DNA of 64,000 nucleotides from a virus (IMGVR_UViG_3300035520_000781:28998-92997); one strand, 5' to 3'; numbered from the stretch's first letter, positions 2 to 6,391 are shown. A program made the numbers and translations. The notes: generated by a model not told the origin, from the letters alone.

Positions 2-679
2 GTTACAAATGGTGGTTATTTCAAAGGAGCAACAATAAGAGATAAATCTGATATTGACATTAAATGCAGAGTTAGACCATGGCAATCTCATGATATTGAA
101 TATTGGGAATCTTATGGAATATCCTTAAAGTGGCTTAAATATGCTGATGTCTATCCTATATCACATAAAATAGTGGTTAAAAATGGCATTAATTATATTT
201 ATGGTGCTGATAAATATGCATATGTATATGTAGAATTTAAAGAAGGTAAAACTACTTTAAAGGTCTATCAACCATTTAATACTAAAGGATTCAAGTGGGC
301 AAACAGACATGATAAGTCTGTTATAAGTCTATGGACTAAAGTTCCTAAAAGTGGAGACAGAGTGTGCATATGTTCTTCACTTAAAGATGCTTTATGTTTA
401 TGGGCTAATACTGGTATTCCTTCACTTGCTATTCAAGGTGAAGGATATGGAATGAGTAATACAGCAATTAATGAACTGAAAAGGCGCTTCAATAGAGTCT
501 ATATTTTATTAGATAATGACCCTCCTGGTCTTGAAGATGCTAAAAATCTTGCTTCAAAAACTGGGTTTATTAATGTTGTATTACCTCCATTTAATGAAGG
601 AAAAGATATTTCAGACCTATATCATTCCCTTCATGATAAAAACAAATTTAAAGAATTAATATTAGGTCTGTTTAACTAA
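2..679 (+). CDS. DNA primase, C-terminal TOPRIM part (5'-truncated by window edge)
   Basis: Frame is open from position 2 (VTNGGYF...), upstream of the called ORF start at 173. TOPRIM-like motifs ICSSLKDAL, ILLDNDPPG and KDISD match crAss-like primases. Confidence 0.85.
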   Translation, partial: VTNGGYFKGATIRDKSDIDIKCRVRPWQSHDIEYWESYGISLKWLKYADVYPISHKIVVKNGINYIYGADKYAYVYVEFKEGKTTLKVYQPFNTKGFKWANRHDKSVISLWTKVPKSGDRVCICSSLKDALCLWANTGIPSLAIQGEGYGMSNTAINELKRRFNRVYILLDNDPPGLEDAKNLASKTGFINVVLPPFNEGKDISDLYHSLHDKNKFKELILGLFN

Positions 680-693
680 CAAAATTTATACAA

Positions 694-1356
694 ATGGAAT
701 CTCGTAAAATCACAATTGTGTCAACAAAGACTCAAAAGAAAAGTGTAATTAACTCAAGTGCAGAAACTCTTGCTGAATTGAAGGCTGACCTTACAGCAGC
801 AGGTATTGACTATACTGATATGACCTTCTATGAAGGAACTTCAAAGACTGAACTGAAGACAGATGAGTCAATTCTTCCTAAAGATGTTCCTTATACCAAT
901 AGGACTACTGGTGAAACTATTATCACTAATGAACTTGTGTTTATGTTGACTAATACTAACAAAAAGATTAAATCCGGTATGAATACTGAGCGTCAAAGAG
1001 CTTATGAGTTTATTAAAGAGCATGACCTGCAAAAGGCTTGCTTGATTAAGTATGGTAAGAACTATACTCAATGCTCTACTGATTTTCTTAATGTACTTAT
1101 CTCTGAGTATATCGAAGCTAATAAGGCACCAGAAGGTTCTTCTCTTGCATCTAATTGTTTCCAGGGTGTAGATGCAAAAGCTCGAGAGGCTATTGCTATT
1201 CTTGTAGATGAACTTTATGATAATGGTGATATTATTGGCAGCACCCTGCATAAAGTAAAGAATCTTTTGAATTACCATACTGAAGGTTCTGACCGCGATA
1301 TTGATTCATCCTATAGTGATGATGAAATTAGCAAAATGTTTGAAAATATACTTTAA
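694..1356 (+). CDS. Putative ubiquitin-like (beta-grasp) protein with C-terminal extension
   Basis: Residues 1-95 show a beta-beta-alpha-beta pattern (KITIVST..SVINS..TLAELKADL..GIDY..MTFYEG..LP..LVFML) ending in KKIKSG95, followed by a helical and acidic tail. Directly upstream of the E2-like, JAB and E1 genes. Confidence 0.6.
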   Translation: MESRKITIVSTKTQKKSVINSSAETLAELKADLTAAGIDYTDMTFYEGTSKTELKTDESILPKDVPYTNRTTGETIITNELVFMLTNTNKKIKSGMNTERQRAYEFIKEHDLQKACLIKYGKNYTQCSTDFLNVLISEYIEANKAPEGSSLASNCFQGVDAKAREAIAILVDELYDNGDIIGSTLHKVKNLLNYHTEGSDRDIDSSYSDDEISKMFENIL

Positions 1357-1365
1357 TTAATTATC

Positions 1366-1404
1366 AGGGAAGAGGGAAATTAACACCCTCTTCCCTATTT
1401 TTTT
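1366..1404 (+). terminator. Rho-independent terminator after the Ubl gene
   Basis: Perfect 11-bp stem AGGGAAGAGGG / CCCTCTTCCCT followed by ATTTTTTT. Confidence 0.85.
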
Positions 1405-1414
1405 AATTGTTATT

Positions 1415-2437
1415 ATGGAACCAGAAAAAACTCCAGTAGATAAAGTTTATGATATATTTAGGAATTTCTATGGAGAAGAGTTTGTAGATAGAAAACCTAT
1501 AGTATGTGGGGAATATATAATAGTCTATTTCCCAAATATTACAGTAACTAATGAAAATAATAAATCCATAGATATTACAAAAGCGTTTGTTAGGGTAAAA
1601 GTTATTAATACAGGAGAAATTGGCGGTTCTATAGAAATGATTAGAACTGAATATACTTCTTCTCAATTTAACTCGGGATATTGTTTTTCCCACAGGCCAT
1701 CTGTATGTGCATCTAATTATACACAATGGAGAGAATGTTGCCTTGGCACAGGCCCAATAAGAGATACTATAATCTCCCTAAGTCATGCTCCTTCTGAAGA
1801 AATTTGGGAATTATTTTGTTATGAATTATCTAAATATGTAACAGTAGAATCTATTGACGGAACTCCTTATATGTATTTAGAAAGAGTAGGTAATGCAAAT
1901 GCATCTAATCAAGTTTCTTTCCCAATAACTAGAAAAGAAGATATGAGTATTAATTTCTTTAATGAGGATAATAGAAATATACTAAGAAAATTCCTACCTT
2001 ATATAATAAAATTAAGACCATTTAAATTTAATTTCAATAGAGGAAGTTATAGCATAGCTATGTCTTCTTTTGAAATAACTATCACATTAAGTAACTTATT
2101 TATTCAATGGTATAATTCTCTTCCTCAGGAAGACAGAATTCCAATAGAAAAGTTATTATCTAATTTAACAATAAGAAAGGCCTTCTTAAATCAATATGGC
2201 AATCTATTTTATGTTTCTGATAGAGACTCTGTTATTAGTTATGAAGATTTAAATAGACCAATTCTAACTTTTAAAGGTACAGAGTATAAGTTACATATAA
2301 TAGAAGATTCTCAAAGTAACTTCATCAATGTTCTTGATGAATATATAGTATTTTATATTGTTAATACAATTTTAACCGCAGTAAATTATGGACCAAACAC
2401 TTCCAATCCAACTTGTGAAGACATCTACTTCATTTGA
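1415..2437 (+). CDS. Putative E2/UBC-like conjugating enzyme (prokaryotic E2 type) with C-terminal extension
   Basis: Beta-rich N-terminus, then FSH93...CC109LGTG followed by a helix (WELF..EL..Y), resembling the E2 H...CLG active-site layout. Sits between the Ubl and JAB genes. Confidence 0.55.
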   Translation: MEPEKTPVDKVYDIFRNFYGEEFVDRKPIVCGEYIIVYFPNITVTNENNKSIDITKAFVRVKVINTGEIGGSIEMIRTEYTSSQFNSGYCFSHRPSVCASNYTQWRECCLGTGPIRDTIISLSHAPSEEIWELFCYELSKYVTVESIDGTPYMYLERVGNANASNQVSFPITRKEDMSINFFNEDNRNILRKFLPYIIKLRPFKFNFNRGSYSIAMSSFEITITLSNLFIQWYNSLPQEDRIPIEKLLSNLTIRKAFLNQYGNLFYVSDRDSVISYEDLNRPILTFKGTEYKLHIIEDSQSNFINVLDEYIVFYIVNTILTAVNYGPNTSNPTCEDIYFI

Positions 2438-3527
2438 TTTAATTATCCCGAGCTCAGTAGAAAGTAAAATAAGGCATCTCTGTAATAAAATATCTCAAGT
2501 AGAGTGGTCTGGTACTTTATTTTATAATTACTCAGGCTCTTATGAAAAAGGAGATTTGAAAATTACTTGTGTAGATATATTTCCTATGGATATTGGTTCT
2601 CAGGCTTATACAGAGTTTGATATGTCGCCTGATGTAATATCCTATATGACAGATAATAATCTAATTGATTGCCAATTGGGATTAATTCATTCCCATAATA
2701 GTATGGCAACTTTCTTTTCTCAGACGGACTTAAACACTCTTAGAGATGAAGGAAAGGATAGAAATCACTTTGTATCTCTCATTGTAAATAATGAAGGTAC
2801 TTATACTGCTGCTATTACAAGAAAGATTAAAGGAAAGAAAAAGGAAATACTTGATTTTACTTATAACACTTTTAATGATGAATTAAAACACAGTAAAAGT
2901 AATAATGAAGTAGACTGTGAGGTTATTCAGTATTCAATGCTTAATATTATCAAACAAGGAGCATCTCAATTTGATGATATTGATGCAAGACTTGCTGAAA
3001 TTAAGAAGGCTAAAGCTGAAAAGGCACAGAAGATAGAAGCAGTTAGAAACATTAATCCCAATTATCTTGGTATAGAGCCTATTAAGAATAAAGACATGGG
3101 ATTATTTAATCCTAATTTATTTCCAAAATCTCCATTTAATGAAAAGAATACATTCTATAAAGAAAAGGATTTCTTTAAAGATAGTGACATTACTGTGGAT
3201 GCTAAGGATGTAAAAGCTCTTGCAATGCAACTTATTACTGGCTCAATTGTAATTACTGAAAGTAATAATATTGATATGAATAATTGGGCAGCTCAGAGAA
3301 TGGTTCCTCTATTTGATAAGAGATTTAATAAAGATATGCTGTTCTTTGAAAATTGGGTAGAGATGTTTGTAGAATTTCTTCTTACCTATTCTGTACCCCA
3401 AGACTATGAAGTTATTGAAGAAAACTATATGAAAGATATGGCAGATGCAGTATATCTTACTCTAAATAAACTGCCTAAGAATGATTATTTGGAAATTATT
3501 AAAGAGAAACTACTATTATGGAATTAG
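2388..3527 (+). CDS. JAB/MPN+ (JAMM) metalloisopeptidase
   Basis: Complete JAMM motif E39...H101-S-H103-x7-S111-x2-D114 (EWSG...IHSHNSMATFFSQTD). Confidence 0.9.
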   Translation: MDQTLPIQLVKTSTSFDLIIPSSVESKIRHLCNKISQVEWSGTLFYNYSGSYEKGDLKITCVDIFPMDIGSQAYTEFDMSPDVISYMTDNNLIDCQLGLIHSHNSMATFFSQTDLNTLRDEGKDRNHFVSLIVNNEGTYTAAITRKIKGKKKEILDFTYNTFNDELKHSKSNNEVDCEVIQYSMLNIIKQGASQFDDIDARLAEIKKAKAEKAQKIEAVRNINPNYLGIEPIKNKDMGLFNPNLFPKSPFNEKNTFYKEKDFFKDSDITVDAKDVKALAMQLITGSIVITESNNIDMNNWAAQRMVPLFDKRFNKDMLFFENWVEMFVEFLLTYSVPQDYEVIEENYMKDMADAVYLTLNKLPKNDYLEIIKEKLLLWN

Positions 3528-4339
3528 AAGAAACAGGACTCTCCCAAGAAGAAGCAGAACTTCTTGAGAGAACTTTGGAAGAAGCACACAGTGAAACTAT
3601 TGATATTCCTCTTAATTCTAAGTCAGTTCTTATAGATGACTCTGTATCAAGGTTTAGTTCTGCAGAATGGTTTTCTAAAATTCAACAGCAAAGAGTTATA
3701 CTTGCAGGTCTTGGAGGGATAGGTAGTTATGTTGCCTTTCTCCTGAGTAGAATGAAAATAGCCCACTTAATGATGTATGATGACGATATAGTTGATGCTA
3801 CTAATATGTCAGGCCAATTATATGGGGTAAGTAGTATAGGAAAGCAAAAATGTCATGAATTAGGAAGCTTCCTTGTAGAATATTCCAGATTTTATAATTA
3901 CTGTATTTACAATAGAAAATATACTGGTCATTGTAATACAGCTAATATTATGATATGTGGCTTTGATAATATGGATGCAAGAAAGACATTCTATTATAAT
4001 TGGAGGGGGCACATAGGTACACTTTCACAAGGAGAAAGAGAAAATTGTTTATTCATAGATGGCAGACTTGCAGCAGAAGAATTTCAAGTTTTCTGTATTA
4101 AAGGAACTGACACATATTACATGGATAAATATGAGAAAGAATGGCTATTTTCTGATGAAGAAAGTGAACAAACTGTTTGTTCTTATAAACAAACCTCATT
4201 TTGTGCCAATATGATTGCCTCAGTGATGGTAAATTTATTTACTAATTTTGTTGCTAATCAATGTAATCCCCTTGTAGAAAGAGAACTACCCTTCTTTACC
4301 TATTATAATGCAGAAAGAATGCTACTAAAAACTGAATAA
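3518..4339 (+). CDS. E1/ThiF-family adenylyltransferase (Ubl-activating enzyme)
   Basis: SRF arginine, GLGGIGS nucleotide loop, DDDIVDATNMSGQ, GKQK, CGFDN..AR and IDGR. Candidate catalytic C221 lies in EQTVCSYK. Confidence 0.92.
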   Translation: MELEETGLSQEEAELLERTLEEAHSETIDIPLNSKSVLIDDSVSRFSSAEWFSKIQQQRVILAGLGGIGSYVAFLLSRMKIAHLMMYDDDIVDATNMSGQLYGVSSIGKQKCHELGSFLVEYSRFYNYCIYNRKYTGHCNTANIMICGFDNMDARKTFYYNWRGHIGTLSQGERENCLFIDGRLAAEEFQVFCIKGTDTYYMDKYEKEWLFSDEESEQTVCSYKQTSFCANMIASVMVNLFTNFVANQCNPLVERELPFFTYYNAERMLLKTE

Positions 4340-4341
4340 TT

Positions 4342-5103
4342 ATGGCATTAGATGTATATCTTAAAAAGTATTTATATAATCCTTCTGGTTATTGCCCTAA
4401 TGTTCCACTACTTCCATGTTATGAACATCATAATGTCTTTAATAGGTTTTTAAGTATTATGGCCAGTAAAGAAGATGAAATATTTATCCCAGTAATAAAT
4501 AAGTATGCCTTCTTTAATAAGATATACCAAGGATTGATTGAAAAAAATAAAGAAACTATTACTATCGCTTGCCCACTTCCCATTACTGGTTCAGGGGAGA
4601 AATGTACAGGAACCAGTATTATTGAATATCTATTAAAAACAAGAGTTAATAAAGGCCTCACTGAAGTTACTACAAAAAGAGGAGACGTATTTTATGGAGG
4701 TGCTGGAATTTTACTTAATAGTCGTAAAGATATTTTAATAATATTTGGATATACAAGTAAAATAGTAAATAATAAAATTAAATTAACTGGAATAAAGGGA
4801 TATATATCTCCATTGGTATTTTTAAGTAATGATATAGTATGCAAAGCAATTATTAAAAATGTTATTCCTTGTGTATCTACTAATCTTATAGCCACTCATA
4901 AAAGTAATTTCCCTTATGGAAAATATGATGCAGATGAAATAGGCACTTATGAAACTCCCAAGCTATTAATTCAAGACTTATCTTATTTAACTTCAAGTCC
5001 TATTGTTCCTAATAACTATCCAGTTAATTTTACAGATAGAAATGCTAAAATATGGGATTTTATAGATAACTATAATATTCCTGAAAAATTCTTGGAGATT
5101 TAA
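4342..5103 (+). CDS. Hypothetical protein, last gene of the E2-JAB-E1 run
   Basis: 253-aa ORF starting 2 nt after the E1 stop. No recognised motif. Confidence 0.75.
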   Translation: MALDVYLKKYLYNPSGYCPNVPLLPCYEHHNVFNRFLSIMASKEDEIFIPVINKYAFFNKIYQGLIEKNKETITIACPLPITGSGEKCTGTSIIEYLLKTRVNKGLTEVTTKRGDVFYGGAGILLNSRKDILIIFGYTSKIVNNKIKLTGIKGYISPLVFLSNDIVCKAIIKNVIPCVSTNLIATHKSNFPYGKYDADEIGTYETPKLLIQDLSYLTSSPIVPNNYPVNFTDRNAKIWDFIDNYNIPEKFLEI

Positions 5104-5124
5104 ATTTTTATTATTATCTTTGCA
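5091..5124 (+). promoter_or_regulatory. Bacteroidota sigma70-type promoter
   Basis: CTTG-N20-TATCTTTG(CA), matching the -33 TTTG / -7 TAnnTTTG consensus. Confidence 0.7.
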
Positions 5125-5148
5125 CAGTAACTTTTAATTTTAATAATT

Positions 5149-5634
5149 ATGAATCATATTAAAGTAATTGATTTGACACCAGTTAAATTGGATGTTGAAA
5201 CCCTTATGGCTAAACTTGATGCAGTTATTGATTCTTATATGAAAGAATCTGCTACTAAAGAAAAGTTTAGGAAAAGAGAAAAAAATGTTGAAATTCCCTC
5301 TGACCTTACTTATTATTTCAAGAAAGTCGCAGATAAGAAAGGATGGTCAGTAGAAAGAGTAGATAGATGGCTTGGTAATATTGCAGATGTTCATCCTATG
5401 GCAGCTATCAATATTATACTTAAAGAAATTGCTGTAGAGCTGGATAAAAAATATACCGACCACATTAGTAATAGTAAAGACATTTTCTGCATTAGTTCTA
5501 TTAATGGTGAAATCTGCAAACTTGATAAGTCAAAGATTAAAAGTTATAAGCACTTTGCAGCATTTAGAACATTTGCAGATGCTAATATAGCATTTAATAT
5601 GCTTGCCACTCCTCTTAAATCTATGTTTAAATGA
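5149..5634 (+). CDS. Hypothetical protein
   Basis: 161-aa ORF downstream of a promoter, with ATGA overlap to the next gene. Confidence 0.8.
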   Translation: MNHIKVIDLTPVKLDVETLMAKLDAVIDSYMKESATKEKFRKREKNVEIPSDLTYYFKKVADKKGWSVERVDRWLGNIADVHPMAAINIILKEIAVELDKKYTDHISNSKDIFCISSINGEICKLDKSKIKSYKHFAAFRTFADANIAFNMLATPLKSMFK

Positions 5635-6077
5635 TAGAAAACAAGAAGATAAAAAATGCTACAGAGTGTGAATTAGACGGTATTAATTTTAGAAGTAAAC
5701 AAGAGAGGTCTATTTACAAGTATCTTTTATCTATTGGTATAACCCCTCAGTATGAATCTGAGAGATTTACAATATGGGACAGGGATAAATTCTCTGTCCC
5801 ATTTTATGATAGATATGGGAGAACTTTTAAAAGAATAGATAGAAAACCTACTTCAGTTCATTACACTCCTGATTTCATCTTTAATGTGGGTGATATAAAA
5901 GTTATTTTAGAAGTCAAGGGATTTAAGAATGATGCAGTTCCTTATAAAACAAGATTGTTCAGAGATTTACTTGAAAAGATTAAAGATAGCTCAGGAGAAA
6001 AGTTATGCTATGCAATAGTATATACTATCAAGGACTTAAAATTTTTATTAAATGATTTGCAAAATTCAAGAGAATAA
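5631..6077 (+). CDS. PD-(D/E)xK endonuclease (DUF1064 / T7 endonuclease I-like)
   Basis: FRSKQE...YTPDF...ILEVKG motifs. Confidence 0.85.
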   Translation: MIENKKIKNATECELDGINFRSKQERSIYKYLLSIGITPQYESERFTIWDRDKFSVPFYDRYGRTFKRIDRKPTSVHYTPDFIFNVGDIKVILEVKGFKNDAVPYKTRLFRDLLEKIKDSSGEKLCYAIVYTIKDLKFLLNDLQNSRE

Positions 6078-6087
6078 CTTATCTTTG
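6056..6087 (+). promoter_or_regulatory. Bacteroidota sigma70-type promoter
   Basis: Perfect TTTG-N20-TATCTTTG. Confidence 0.8.
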
Positions 6088-6109
6088 CCCACTTTTAATT
6101 TCAAAAATT

Positions 6110-6391
6110 ATGAAACAAAGTCCATTGCAAAGAATAGAAAGTCTCATCACTACTTTGCCAGGAAAAGATGCTGAATTAGCTAAGAAATACTTTAAAGAAA
6201 GAAACTTTGAGTATATTCTTGAATTAGTTAAGTCTGATTTATATAAAGCAAATAAAGCAAAGAGGGCACAAAAAGTGATAACAGAAGTAGAGGATTTAGA
6301 TGAAAGTATAGCTTCTTTACTATCATTAGAAGAAGAACTAATACTGTATATGTCTTATCTTGATATAGACCTCTCGAACTATGATGATTAA
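6110..6391 (+). CDS. Hypothetical helical protein
   Basis: 93-aa ORF following a promoter. Confidence 0.75.
   Translation: MKQSPLQRIESLITTLPGKDAELAKKYFKERNFEYILELVKSDLYKANKAKRAQKVITEVEDLDESIASLLSLEEELILYMSYLDIDLSNYDD

What the first reader, a model, noticed from the sequence alone, without database searches (positions are those of the whole stretch)
694..1356. Ubl is encoded as a pro-protein: KKIKSG95 is buried ahead of a 125-aa passenger
The predicted beta-grasp domain ends at KKIKSG (Gly codon 976-978), immediately followed by Met96 and a separate helical region with an acidic tail (SYSDDEISKMF). E1 needs a free C-terminal Gly, so the JAB would have to cleave after G95. This parallels JAB priming of BilA and ubiquitin-ribosomal protein fusions. 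The released C-terminal half may be a second functional protein.
Basis: inference. Interest (0 to 1): 0.8.

Follow-up and report, generated by a model that had tools for sequence, protein, structure and literature searches.

The report
Phage ubiquitin-like protein made as precursor
A crAss-like gut phage encodes its ubiquitin-like tag as the first 95 residues of a 220-residue protein. Comparative evidence, including relatives whose gene is split right after the invariant Ser-Gly, suggests the neighbouring JAB protease cuts there, but no cleavage has been measured.

Summary
ORF 694-1356 encodes 220 aa, Gly95 is codon 976-978, and Met96 follows. AlphaFold2 (pLDDT 89) gives residues 1-89 a beta-grasp fold, and all 50 top structural matches are ubiquitin-type folds. 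In 151 cluster representatives Gly95 is invariant. The tail K90-G95 is the most conserved segment of the protein, although it is modelled as a loose coil. The next four residues are the junction, which is hypervariable and indel-prone.

The passenger is a conserved, modular protein: a three-helix module, a variable linker, two helices and a conserved acidic tail.

New evidence: 23 protein clusters, some on about 100-kb phage contigs, end one or two residues after Ser-Gly. In three loci with DNA, an HNH homing-endonuclease gene sits at that point and the passenger is a separate ORF. Both halves stay under purifying selection.

An active-looking JAB, a ThiF-type E1 and a Cys/His E2 candidate accompany the gene in nearly all loci.

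Cleavage by the JAB is inferred, not shown. The closest precedent is bacterial BubAB (Ubl-E2 pre-protein cut by a JAB). I rate this a new variant of a known kind. This scan has already noted the same feature on other crAss-like genomes.

The parts
694..1356 (+). Ubl-passenger precursor gene (220 aa, stop TAA 1354-1356)
   Evidence: ORF list. More than 5,400 homologues of 121-385 aa, nearly all fused forms. Homologue of crAss001 Gp79 in the same gene order.
694..960 (+). Beta-grasp (ubiquitin-like) domain, residues 1-89
   Evidence: AF2 model with pLDDT 92-98 over most of this range, about 88 for residues 81-90. VIA-align top 50 are all beta-grasp proteins (TINCR Ubl, FAT10, ubiquitin, ISG15, DIX, UBX, MoaD), Z 5.8-7.3, rmsd 2.2-3 A over about 70-76 residues. 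Foldseek hits of the same kind are weak, E about 1e-2.
961..978 (+). Conserved tail K90-K-I-K-S-G95; Gly95 codon is 976-978
   Evidence: Most conserved segment of the protein (mean entropy 0.61 bits; G95 in 151 of 151 representatives), yet modelled as loose coil with pLDDT about 65.
979..990 (+). Hypervariable junction, residues 96-99; the predicted scissile bond is G95|M96 at 978/979
   Evidence: Entropy 2.97 bits and 22% gaps. The residue after Gly is A in 178 of 257 long forms, then S, M, V, G. This is the site of the HNH gene insertion in the split relatives.
985..1122 (+). Passenger module 1: three helices (98-109, 113-120, 129-143) with R100 in 149 of 151 representatives and L112, T125 and L132 at least 90% conserved
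   Evidence: pLDDT 97-98 in the full model. Conservation. Only weak fold matches (Z at most 5.2; they include Rho N-terminal and SAP domains at Z 3.6-4.4), so no fold is assigned.
1123..1173 (+). Variable linker, residues 144-160
   Evidence: Entropy 3.47 bits and 28% gaps for the overlapping alignment segment 139-160. Low pLDDT. In some relatives this region holds a ribosomal bL12 C-terminal domain.
1174..1266 (+). Passenger module 2: two helices (161-176, 182-191)
   Evidence: AF2 pLDDT 86-95. Moderately conserved hydrophobic pattern.
1306..1341 (+). Conserved acidic C-terminal motif S-[PS]-Y-S-D-x-E-I-x-x-M-F, residues 205-216
   Evidence: Entropy 1.80 bits against about 3.5 in the flanks. 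Short helix 209-215. Present in the split-form passenger ORFs too.
1366..1404 (+). Terminator-like hairpin (11 bp stem, 9 nt loop) plus U-run, between the precursor gene and the enzyme genes
   Evidence: RNA fold -20.2 kcal/mol, z -4.3, 0 of 200 shuffles as good. The consensus scan missed it because the loop exceeds 8 nt.
1415..2437 (+). 340-aa candidate E2-like protein (invariant H93 at 1691-1693; C109 at 1739-1741 within C-x-G-x-G-P-I)
   Evidence: Invariant residues in 28 non-redundant homologues. No Pfam, PDB or PADLOC hit. One weak Atlas lead to Prok-E2_D, score 0.77. The fold was not tested.
2388..3527 (+). JAB/JAMM peptidase (379 aa), the predicted processing enzyme
   Evidence: Pfam Prok-JAB E 5e-4, and 1e-5 for the L010 homologue. 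E39, H101, S102, H103, S111 and D114 invariant in 20 diverse homologues.
3518..4339 (+). ThiF-type E1 adenylating enzyme (273 aa)
   Evidence: Pfam ThiF E 1.3e-14. Weak hits to CBASS E1-E2 and BilD models. G64xGGxG69, D88, D90, R155, D181-G-R183 and C221 conserved in at least 95% of 20 homologues.
4342..5103 (+). 253-aa conserved partner of unknown function, abutting the E1 gene
   Evidence: Same position as crAss001 Gp75 and as the ORFs in L010 and L063. No family hit.

Best explanation
The 220-aa product is a precursor. Residues 1-95 are a ubiquitin-like beta-grasp modifier whose reactive Gly95 is masked by a 125-residue passenger. The neighbouring JAB/JAMM metallopeptidase cuts the G95|M96 bond. 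That frees the Ubl with a C-terminal Ser-Gly, which the ThiF-type E1 then adenylates and probably passes to the Cys/His E2-like protein for conjugation. The cut also releases the passenger as an independent protein.

Shown here: the fold, the invariant tail, the variable junction, the modular conserved passenger, the constant linkage to JAB and E1, and natural split genes. Inferred: the cleavage itself, which enzyme makes it, conjugation, and what the passenger does. The passenger's acidic tail and three-helix module suggest a docking or nucleic-acid-associated role, but that is speculative.
For: 1. Residues 1-89 are a confident beta-grasp, and every one of the top 50 structural matches is a ubiquitin-type fold.

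2. G95 is invariant in 151 of 151 cluster representatives. The coil tail 90-95 is the most conserved segment (0.61 bits) and directly abuts the most indel-prone junction. That pattern is expected for a recognition and cleavage site, not for a passive linker. Distant members keep the Gly (KKVASG, NQGG).

3. A natural split exists. 23 clusters end at SG+1 or SG+2 (IC, IY, IF, KF, KC, K), several on 92-101 kb contigs. In L010, L063 and L072 the Ubl ORF stops with TAA two codons after Gly. An HNH/NUMOD homing-endonuclease gene or its remnant follows, and the passenger then restarts with its own ATG. Rfam finds no group I intron there, and the Gly codons end in C or A. Both halves stay under purifying selection (dN/dS 0.08-0.09 and 0.35-0.44). 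JAB and E1 remain intact in those loci.

4. The JAMM catalytic residues are invariant, and E1 motifs including C221 are conserved. Of 99 loci with enough downstream DNA, 94 have the JAB motif, 87 the E1 motif and 97 the C-x-G-x-G-P motif.

5. There is experimental precedent. BilC cuts BilA at Gly97|Ala98 and also cuts a BilA-GFP fusion. BubCD's JAB domain cuts the BubAB pre-protein after Gly229 into a Ubl and a functional 133-aa protein. Here the residue after Gly is Ala in 69% of homologues.
Against: No cleavage, adenylation or conjugation has been measured for any member of this family. The tail ends Ser-Gly rather than Gly-Gly and is 9 residues long after the last strand, longer than in ubiquitin. 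The E2 assignment rests only on invariant His and Cys residues and a weak lead. The split genes also fit a two-domain protein whose halves work apart or reassemble without any processing. All three split loci examined share one insertion junction, so they probably represent a single event that then spread. The one short form from another lineage (P0202, ending SGK) could not be checked at DNA level. Fold-match scores for the beta-grasp are moderate (Z about 7).
Confidence: 0.65

Rival explanations
1. It is an uncleaved two-domain adaptor. The beta-grasp is a built-in UBL domain, as in Rad23/Dsk2-type or UBX/DIX proteins, that docks onto partners. Gly95 is conserved for structural or hinge reasons, and the E1 acts on another substrate.
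For: Integral UBL domains are common among the structural matches (UBX, DIX, PB1, Dsk2 UBL). More than 99% of family members are fused. The passenger is conserved along with the Ubl. The split forms could work as non-covalent halves.
Against: A hinge would not need an invariant K-K-I-x-S-G coil, which is the most conserved stretch of the protein, next to a hypervariable junction. The split forms keep the Gly within two residues of the C-terminus, and none breaks elsewhere. No other candidate E1 substrate with a conserved C-terminal Gly is seen in the cassette; the precursor's own C-terminus is variable. ThiF-type E1s act on a free C-terminal carboxylate (established knowledge).
Confidence: 0.17
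2. The precursor is processed as proposed, but the freed Ubl is a sulphur carrier of the ThiS/MoaD/CysO/QbsE kind. It is thiocarboxylated by the E1 for a nucleotide or cofactor modification, and is not a protein modifier.
For: The E1's best curated hits are ThiF and MoeB models, all below their cut-offs. MoaD-type carriers are among the fold matches (5mpo, 6jc0, 1vjk). JAMM trimming of sulphur carriers is known (Mec+/CysO, QbsD/QbsE; from my own knowledge). The cassette sits in a DNA and nucleotide-metabolism block.
Against: No rhodanese, cysteine desulphurase, PP-loop or ThiG/MoaE-like partner was found in the five genes. The tail is SG, not GG. A conserved Cys/His protein that could be an E2 is always present. 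The E1 also hits the E1 part of CBASS Cap2 and BilD models.
Confidence: 0.1
3. The two halves are separated some other way than by the JAB. Either a second translation start at the Met just after the Gly (M96 here, the M of M-[ST]-R in relatives) produces the passenger, or a host protease makes the cut. The JAB then serves only to remove conjugates.
For: A Met lies at or within 1-4 residues of the junction in many members. The split forms start the passenger with an ATG just upstream of that Met. Discussion in the Bub paper shows that JAB roles differ between systems.
Against: Internal initiation would not free the Gly of the N-terminal half. The split forms still carry a 1-2 residue cap that needs trimming. 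JAB pre-processing is the demonstrated route in both Bil and Bub.
Confidence: 0.05

Closest known systems
Type I Bub operons: BubAB pre-protein cut by the JAB domain of BubCD (Ye et al. 2024, PMC11601596)
   Same: The Ubl is encoded in frame with a folded, functional passenger of more than 100 residues. A JAB/JAMM peptidase from the same gene set cuts immediately after a conserved Gly to expose it for a ThiF-type E1.
   Different: The Bub passenger is the E2 itself; here it is a helical, non-enzymatic-looking protein and the E2 candidate is a separate gene. The Bub JAB is fused to the E1; here they are separate genes. No DUF6527/BubE hit was found. Bub is bacterial and this system is phage-encoded. 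Cleavage is shown for Bub and only inferred here.
Bil systems: BilA Ubl pre-processed by BilC (Chambers et al., 10.1101/2023.09.26.559546)
   Same: Both have separate Ubl, JAB and E1 genes. The JAB cuts Gly|Ala at the Ubl tail and tolerates a large C-terminal fusion (BilA-GFP). The E1 here weakly matches the PADLOC BilD model.
   Different: BilA carries at most nine residues after the Gly; here there are 125 conserved residues. No sequence match was found to BilA, BilB or BilC models. Bil is an anti-phage defence of bacteria, whereas this is a core gene set of a phage.
Eukaryotic ubiquitin-ribosomal protein fusions (UBA52, RPS27A) and Fubi-S30
   Same: A ubiquitin-fold modifier and a second functional protein are made as one polypeptide and separated after the terminal Gly (established knowledge). 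Some relatives of this phage protein even carry a ribosomal bL12 C-terminal domain in the passenger.
   Different: No homology of the passenger. Eukaryotic cleavage is mostly by cysteine DUBs. The window's own passenger has no ribosomal domain. This is an analogy only.
crAss001 Gp79-Gp75 (NC_049977) and other Steigviridae records
   Same: Direct homologues in the same order after the primase.
   Different: Public records call them hypothetical protein, metalloprotease domain protein and thiamine biosynthesis protein ThiF. No Ubl, precursor or conjugation reading was found in the papers searched.

Membership tests
Ubiquitin-like modifiers activated by an E1 | Beta-grasp fold | tested here: met
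   AF2 pLDDT 92-98 over most of residues 1-89. Top 50 VIA-align matches are all beta-grasp, Z 5.8-7.3. Foldseek matches of the same kind are weak.
Ubiquitin-like modifiers activated by an E1 | Flexible tail after the last strand ending in a conserved Gly | tested here: met
   G95 in 151 of 151 representatives; tail entropy 0.61 bits; pLDDT about 65.
Ubiquitin-like modifiers activated by an E1 | The Gly is C-terminal, or is exposed by removal of whatever follows it | not testable with these tools
   In the window 125 residues follow the Gly. Natural relatives end 1-2 residues after it. Proteolysis itself needs an experiment.
Ubiquitin-like modifiers activated by an E1 | Encoded with a ThiF-type E1 and a JAB/DUB | tested here: met
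   Pfam ThiF 1.3e-14. JAMM residues invariant. Motifs present in 87 and 94 of 99 loci.
Ubiquitin-like modifiers activated by an E1 | An E2 with a catalytic Cys (UBC fold) | tested here: inconclusive
   The 340-aa neighbour has invariant H93 and C109 and one weak Prok-E2_D lead. It has no family hit, and its fold was not predicted.
Ubiquitin-like modifiers activated by an E1 | Covalent conjugation to targets | not testable with these tools
   Needs mass spectrometry for Ser-Gly remnants on lysines.
Type I Bub (BubAB/BubCD/BubE) | Ubl fused in frame to a folded passenger after a conserved Gly | tested here: met
Type I Bub (BubAB/BubCD/BubE) | The passenger is the E2-like BubB | tested here: not met
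   The passenger is all-helical with a disordered linker.
Type I Bub (BubAB/BubCD/BubE) | JAB fused to the E1 (BubCD) | tested here: not met
   JAB (2388-3527) and E1 (3518-4339) are separate overlapping ORFs here and in all loci read.
Type I Bub (BubAB/BubCD/BubE) | DUF6527 protease BubE present | tested here: not met
   No such Pfam hit at E up to 0.1 in the eight ORFs from 2 to 6077.
Bil (BilABCD) | Sequence membership of the Ubl, E2, JAB and E1 in Bil models | tested here: inconclusive
   PADLOC gave only a weak BilD hit (3.8e-6) for the E1 and a generic JAB hit (7.5e-4). Nothing was found for the Ubl or the 340-aa protein.
Bil (BilABCD) | Short C-terminal cap on the Ubl (at most nine residues) | tested here: not met
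   125 residues follow the Gly in the window and 100-180 in relatives. Only the rare split forms have a 1-2 residue cap.
ThiS/MoaD-type sulphur carriers | Gly-Gly end and sulphur-transfer or acceptor enzymes alongside the E1 | tested here: inconclusive
   The tail is Ser-Gly. No sulphur-transfer or acceptor family was found in the neighbours, but two neighbours have no assigned family.

The most novel reading that the evidence does not exclude
The passenger may not be a mere cap but a second effector, released one-for-one with the Ubl. The phage would then use ubiquitin-style precursor processing, as eukaryotes do for ubiquitin-ribosomal protein fusions, to time and dose a helper protein. That helper docks through its conserved acidic tail onto the replication or translation machinery. 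In some lineages it carries a captured ribosomal bL12 C-terminal domain, which could engage translation GTPases.
Probability: 0.15. Interest if true: 0.8.

Novelty: new variant of a known kind. Interest (0 to 1): 0.6.

Why it matters
crAss-like phages are among the most abundant viruses of the human gut. This gene set is a constant part of the replication block in a large group of them: more than 5,400 homologous protein clusters, including cultured crAss001, DAC15 and the PhiCrAssBcn phages. Ubiquitin-like conjugation in prokaryotes has so far been studied as a bacterial defence against phages. A phage-run version, whose tag is made as a precursor with a conserved passenger, gives a testable entry point: one protease, one bond, and cultured phage-host pairs. 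It would also extend the 'Ubl fused to a second functional protein' design, known from eukaryotes and Bub operons, to viruses. Public records currently mislabel these genes as thiamine biosynthesis or hypothetical.

Tried and rejected
- **Group I intron or intein as the cause of the short forms: rejected.** Rfam found nothing at E up to 1 in L010, L063 or L072. The Gly codons end in C or A. A TAA stop and a separate HNH ORF lie between the halves, and L063 has only about 245 nt of degraded endonuclease gene there.
- **Recoded stop codon: rejected.** The stop is TAA, and the downstream frame does not continue the protein.
- **Contig-end truncation: rejected for the 91-aa forms.** They lie inside 92-101 kb contigs. 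It does apply to several other short hits (P0270, P0288, P0294, P0297-P0302).
- **Complex prediction of JAB(1-175) with precursor(1-112): no verdict.** Score 0.61 against 0.45 for one control. I do not use it either way.
- **Fold of the passenger: no assignment.** Foldseek against PDB gave nothing at E below 2. VIA-align gave a best Z of 5.2, with SAP and Rho-N domains among many unrelated rows at Z about 4. BFVD returned only family members. The Atlas gave no usable hit.
- **Sequence searches of the precursor: no assignment.** PDB, Pfam, NCBIfam and PADLOC gave nothing significant. PHROGs gave only an unknown-function family at E 4e-4.
- **Fused forms longer than 385 aa:** none found, which is weak evidence.
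- **DNA of the independent short form P0202 (ends SGK): not obtained.** IMG/VR and the metagenome scan held only fused relatives at 72% identity or less.
- **Literature:** no paper in the searched library describes this system in crAss-like phages. One 2026 preprint notes in passing a gut-phage protein family resembling UBA5.

Full report
**What is in the window.** The first 7 kb reads as the replication block of a crAss-like phage. It holds, in order:
- the 3' part of a primase gene (2-679; Toprim, PHROG DNA primase E 6e-34)
- the 220-aa ORF of the finding (694-1356)
- a strong hairpin with a U-run (1366-1404; -20.2 kcal/mol, z -4.3)
- four overlapping or abutting ORFs: a 340-aa protein with no known family (1415-2437), a JAB peptidase (2388-3527), a ThiF-type E1 (3518-4339; Pfam 1.3e-14) and a 253-aa unknown (4342-5103)

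tblastn finds the 220-aa protein in 45 phage records, including cultured Bacteroides phages crAss001, DAC15, DAC17 and the PhiCrAssBcn series. In crAss001 the order is the same: primase Gp80, Gp79 (hypothetical), Gp78, Gp77 ('metalloprotease'), Gp76 ('thiamine biosynthesis protein ThiF') and Gp75.

**Checking the observation.** The coordinates are exact. Codon 95 is GGT at 976-978 and Met96 is 979-981. AlphaFold2 on a 150-sequence alignment gives mean pLDDT 89.3. It shows a strand-strand-helix-strand pattern through residue 86, a dip to about 65 over residues 91-100, and then six helices. An exhaustive structural comparison spans residues 1-92, and all 50 listed matches are beta-grasp proteins: a ubiquitin-like protein TINCR, FAT10, ubiquitin, ISG15, NEDD8-type complexes, DIX, UBX, PB1 and MoaD. 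Scores are Z 5.8-7.3 with rmsd 2.2-3 A over about 70-76 residues. Foldseek gives the same kind of hits at weak E-values. Z about 7 is moderate. The unanimity of the list, rather than any single score, supports the fold call.

**Conservation.** A word-indexed search found 5,429 proteins of 121-385 aa. An exhaustive HMMER search of 50%-identity representatives found 791, of which 661 are below 1e-10. In the 151 best representatives G95 is invariant, and K90, K91, I92 and S94 are at least 90% conserved.

| Segment | Mean entropy (bits) | Gaps |
|---|---|---|
| Beta-grasp 1-89 | 1.33 | |
| Tail 90-95 | 0.61 | |
| Junction 96-99 | 2.97 | 22% |
| Three-helix module 100-138 | 2.03 | |
| Linker 139-160 | 3.47 | 28% |
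| Motif 205-216 | 1.80 | |

The least structured part of the Ubl half is therefore the best conserved part of the whole protein, and it touches the least conserved, length-variable part. That is what a recognition tail followed by a scissile junction should look like. It is hard to explain for a plain inter-domain hinge. Distant loci keep the Gly (KKVASG in L113, NQGG in L115). It does so only for four residues, because the passenger is itself a conserved protein.

**The natural split.** A search restricted to short proteins returned 23 clusters that end one or two residues after Ser-Gly. The endings are IC (8), KF (8), IY (4), IF, KC and K. Several lie inside 92-101 kb contigs.

Three such loci were recovered from IMG/VR. 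In L010 the Ubl ORF (6001-6276) ends ...SG-I-C-TAA. Fifteen bases later a 170-aa ORF begins that matches NUMOD4, HNH_3 and NUMOD1. Thirteen to sixteen bases after its stop, an ATG opens an ORF that reads M-N-T-N-N-M-T-R-A-E-A-Y and continues through the whole passenger to the acidic tail. L063 and L072 share the same junctions, and in L063 the endonuclease gene is degraded.

This is not an intron. Rfam finds no intron family at E up to 1, and the Gly codons end in C or A rather than the U expected at a group I 5' splice site. In L063 the whole insert of about 245 nt is endonuclease remnant.

Between split lineages both halves evolve under purifying selection: dN/dS is 0.08-0.09 for the Ubl and 0.35-0.44 for the passenger. 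The JAB and E1 genes remain intact. So phages exist in which the covalent link is gone and the Ubl carries only a Bil-like 2-residue cap. This shows that the two halves are separable units with the boundary at the Gly.

Two limits apply. The shared junction suggests one insertion event that later spread. A non-covalent two-piece protein also remains possible.

**The enzymes.**
- JAB: in 20 diverse JAB homologues E39, H101, S102, H103, S111 and D114 are invariant.
- E1: the nucleotide loop G64-x-G-G-x-G69, several acidic and basic active-site-type residues and C221 are conserved in at least 95% of 20 sequences.
- 340-aa protein: it has invariant H93 and C109 in a C-x-G-x-G-P-I motif and one weak language-model lead to Prok-E2_D. 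I treat it as an E2 candidate only.

Of 99 loci with at least 4.5 kb downstream of the Ubl gene, simple motif tests find the JAB in 94, the E1 in 87 and the Cys motif in 97.

**The passenger.** Folded alone it gives the same helices, with low confidence in two linkers. No structural or sequence search assigns it a fold. SAP and Rho-N-terminal domains appear at Z about 4 among many unrelated rows, which is not evidence.

It is modular. Three cluster representatives (P0231, P0236, P0243) carry a ribosomal L7/L12 C-terminal domain in the linker (Pfam E 7e-15, 2e-10, 1e-16). A public cr126_1 protein of this family is named accordingly in BFVD. The conserved acidic, aromatic-ended tail recalls docking tails of replication proteins; that comparison is from memory and was not tested.

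**Mechanism and rivals.** The best reading (0.65) is precursor processing by the JAB at G95|M96, followed by E1 activation. The steps from cleavage onward are inferred from family knowledge and from two experimental precedents found in the literature. BilC cuts BilA at Gly97|Ala98 and also cuts BilA-GFP, and BilA caps reach at most nine residues. The JAB domain of BubCD cuts the BubAB pre-protein after Gly229, yielding a Ubl and a functional 133-residue E2-like protein.

The rivals are:
- an uncleaved UBL-domain adaptor (0.17)
- a processed sulphur carrier rather than a protein tag (0.10)
- separation by another route, with the JAB acting only on conjugates (0.05)

The complex prediction gave no verdict and is not used.

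**Comparison and novelty.** This works like BubAB, but it is not a Bub member: the passenger is not the E2, the JAB is not fused to the E1, and no DUF6527 protein is present. It resembles Bil in gene content but not in sequence or in cap length. I found no paper describing it in crAss-like phages. One preprint mentions in passing a UBA5-like gut-phage protein family.

This scan has already reported the same precursor and cassette on other crAss-like genomes. Those notes agree with my reading, which I reached from my own searches.

I class it as a new variant of a known kind, with interest 0.6.

Noticed in passing
L010:5428-5982 and L010:6291-6803; remnant in L063:6309-6452: Two free-standing HNH/NUMOD homing-endonuclease genes flank the Ubl ORF in one phage lineage, one between primase and Ubl and one splitting the Ubl from its passenger. 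The copy in L063 is degraded. Synonymous divergence differs between the two halves (about 2.0 against 0.9), which might reflect co-conversion near the homing site.
   Followed up: partly
P0231 res 174-237, P0236 res 185-241, P0243 res 173-234; BFVD A0A7M1RYT6 (phage cr126_1): In some relatives the passenger's variable linker holds a ribosomal protein L7/L12 C-terminal domain (Pfam PF00542, E down to 1e-16). A phage Ubl fused to a ribosomal-protein domain echoes the eukaryotic ubiquitin-ribosomal protein fusions.
   Followed up: partly
window 1366-1404: A strong terminator-like hairpin (11 bp stem, 9 nt loop, U-run; -20.2 kcal/mol, z -4.3) separates the precursor gene from the enzyme genes. The in-frame read-through of the same spot in many loci suggests it is conserved. 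It would allow the precursor to be made in excess over its enzymes.
   Followed up: partly
window 4342-5103: A 253-aa ORF abuts the E1 gene and keeps its place in crAss001 (Gp75), L010 and L063. It matches no family in Pfam, PHROGs, NCBIfam or PADLOC, and is probably a fifth member of the cassette.
   Followed up: no
L001 (NC_049977, crAss001) Gp76-Gp79: Public annotation calls the E1 'thiamine biosynthesis protein', the JAB 'metalloprotease domain containing protein' and the Ubl precursor 'hypothetical protein'. These labels hide the cassette from keyword searches.
   Followed up: yes
L115:6001-6801: The most distant member seen (45% identity, 267 aa, on a 167-kb contig) ends its Ubl tail in N-Q-G-G, a di-glycine like ubiquitin, and has a longer, different-looking passenger.
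   Followed up: no
window 908-925 (residues 72-77): The window's protein and a few relatives carry a six-residue insertion (T-G-E-T-I-I) in a beta-hairpin of the Ubl. It is absent from 144 of 151 representatives.
   Followed up: no
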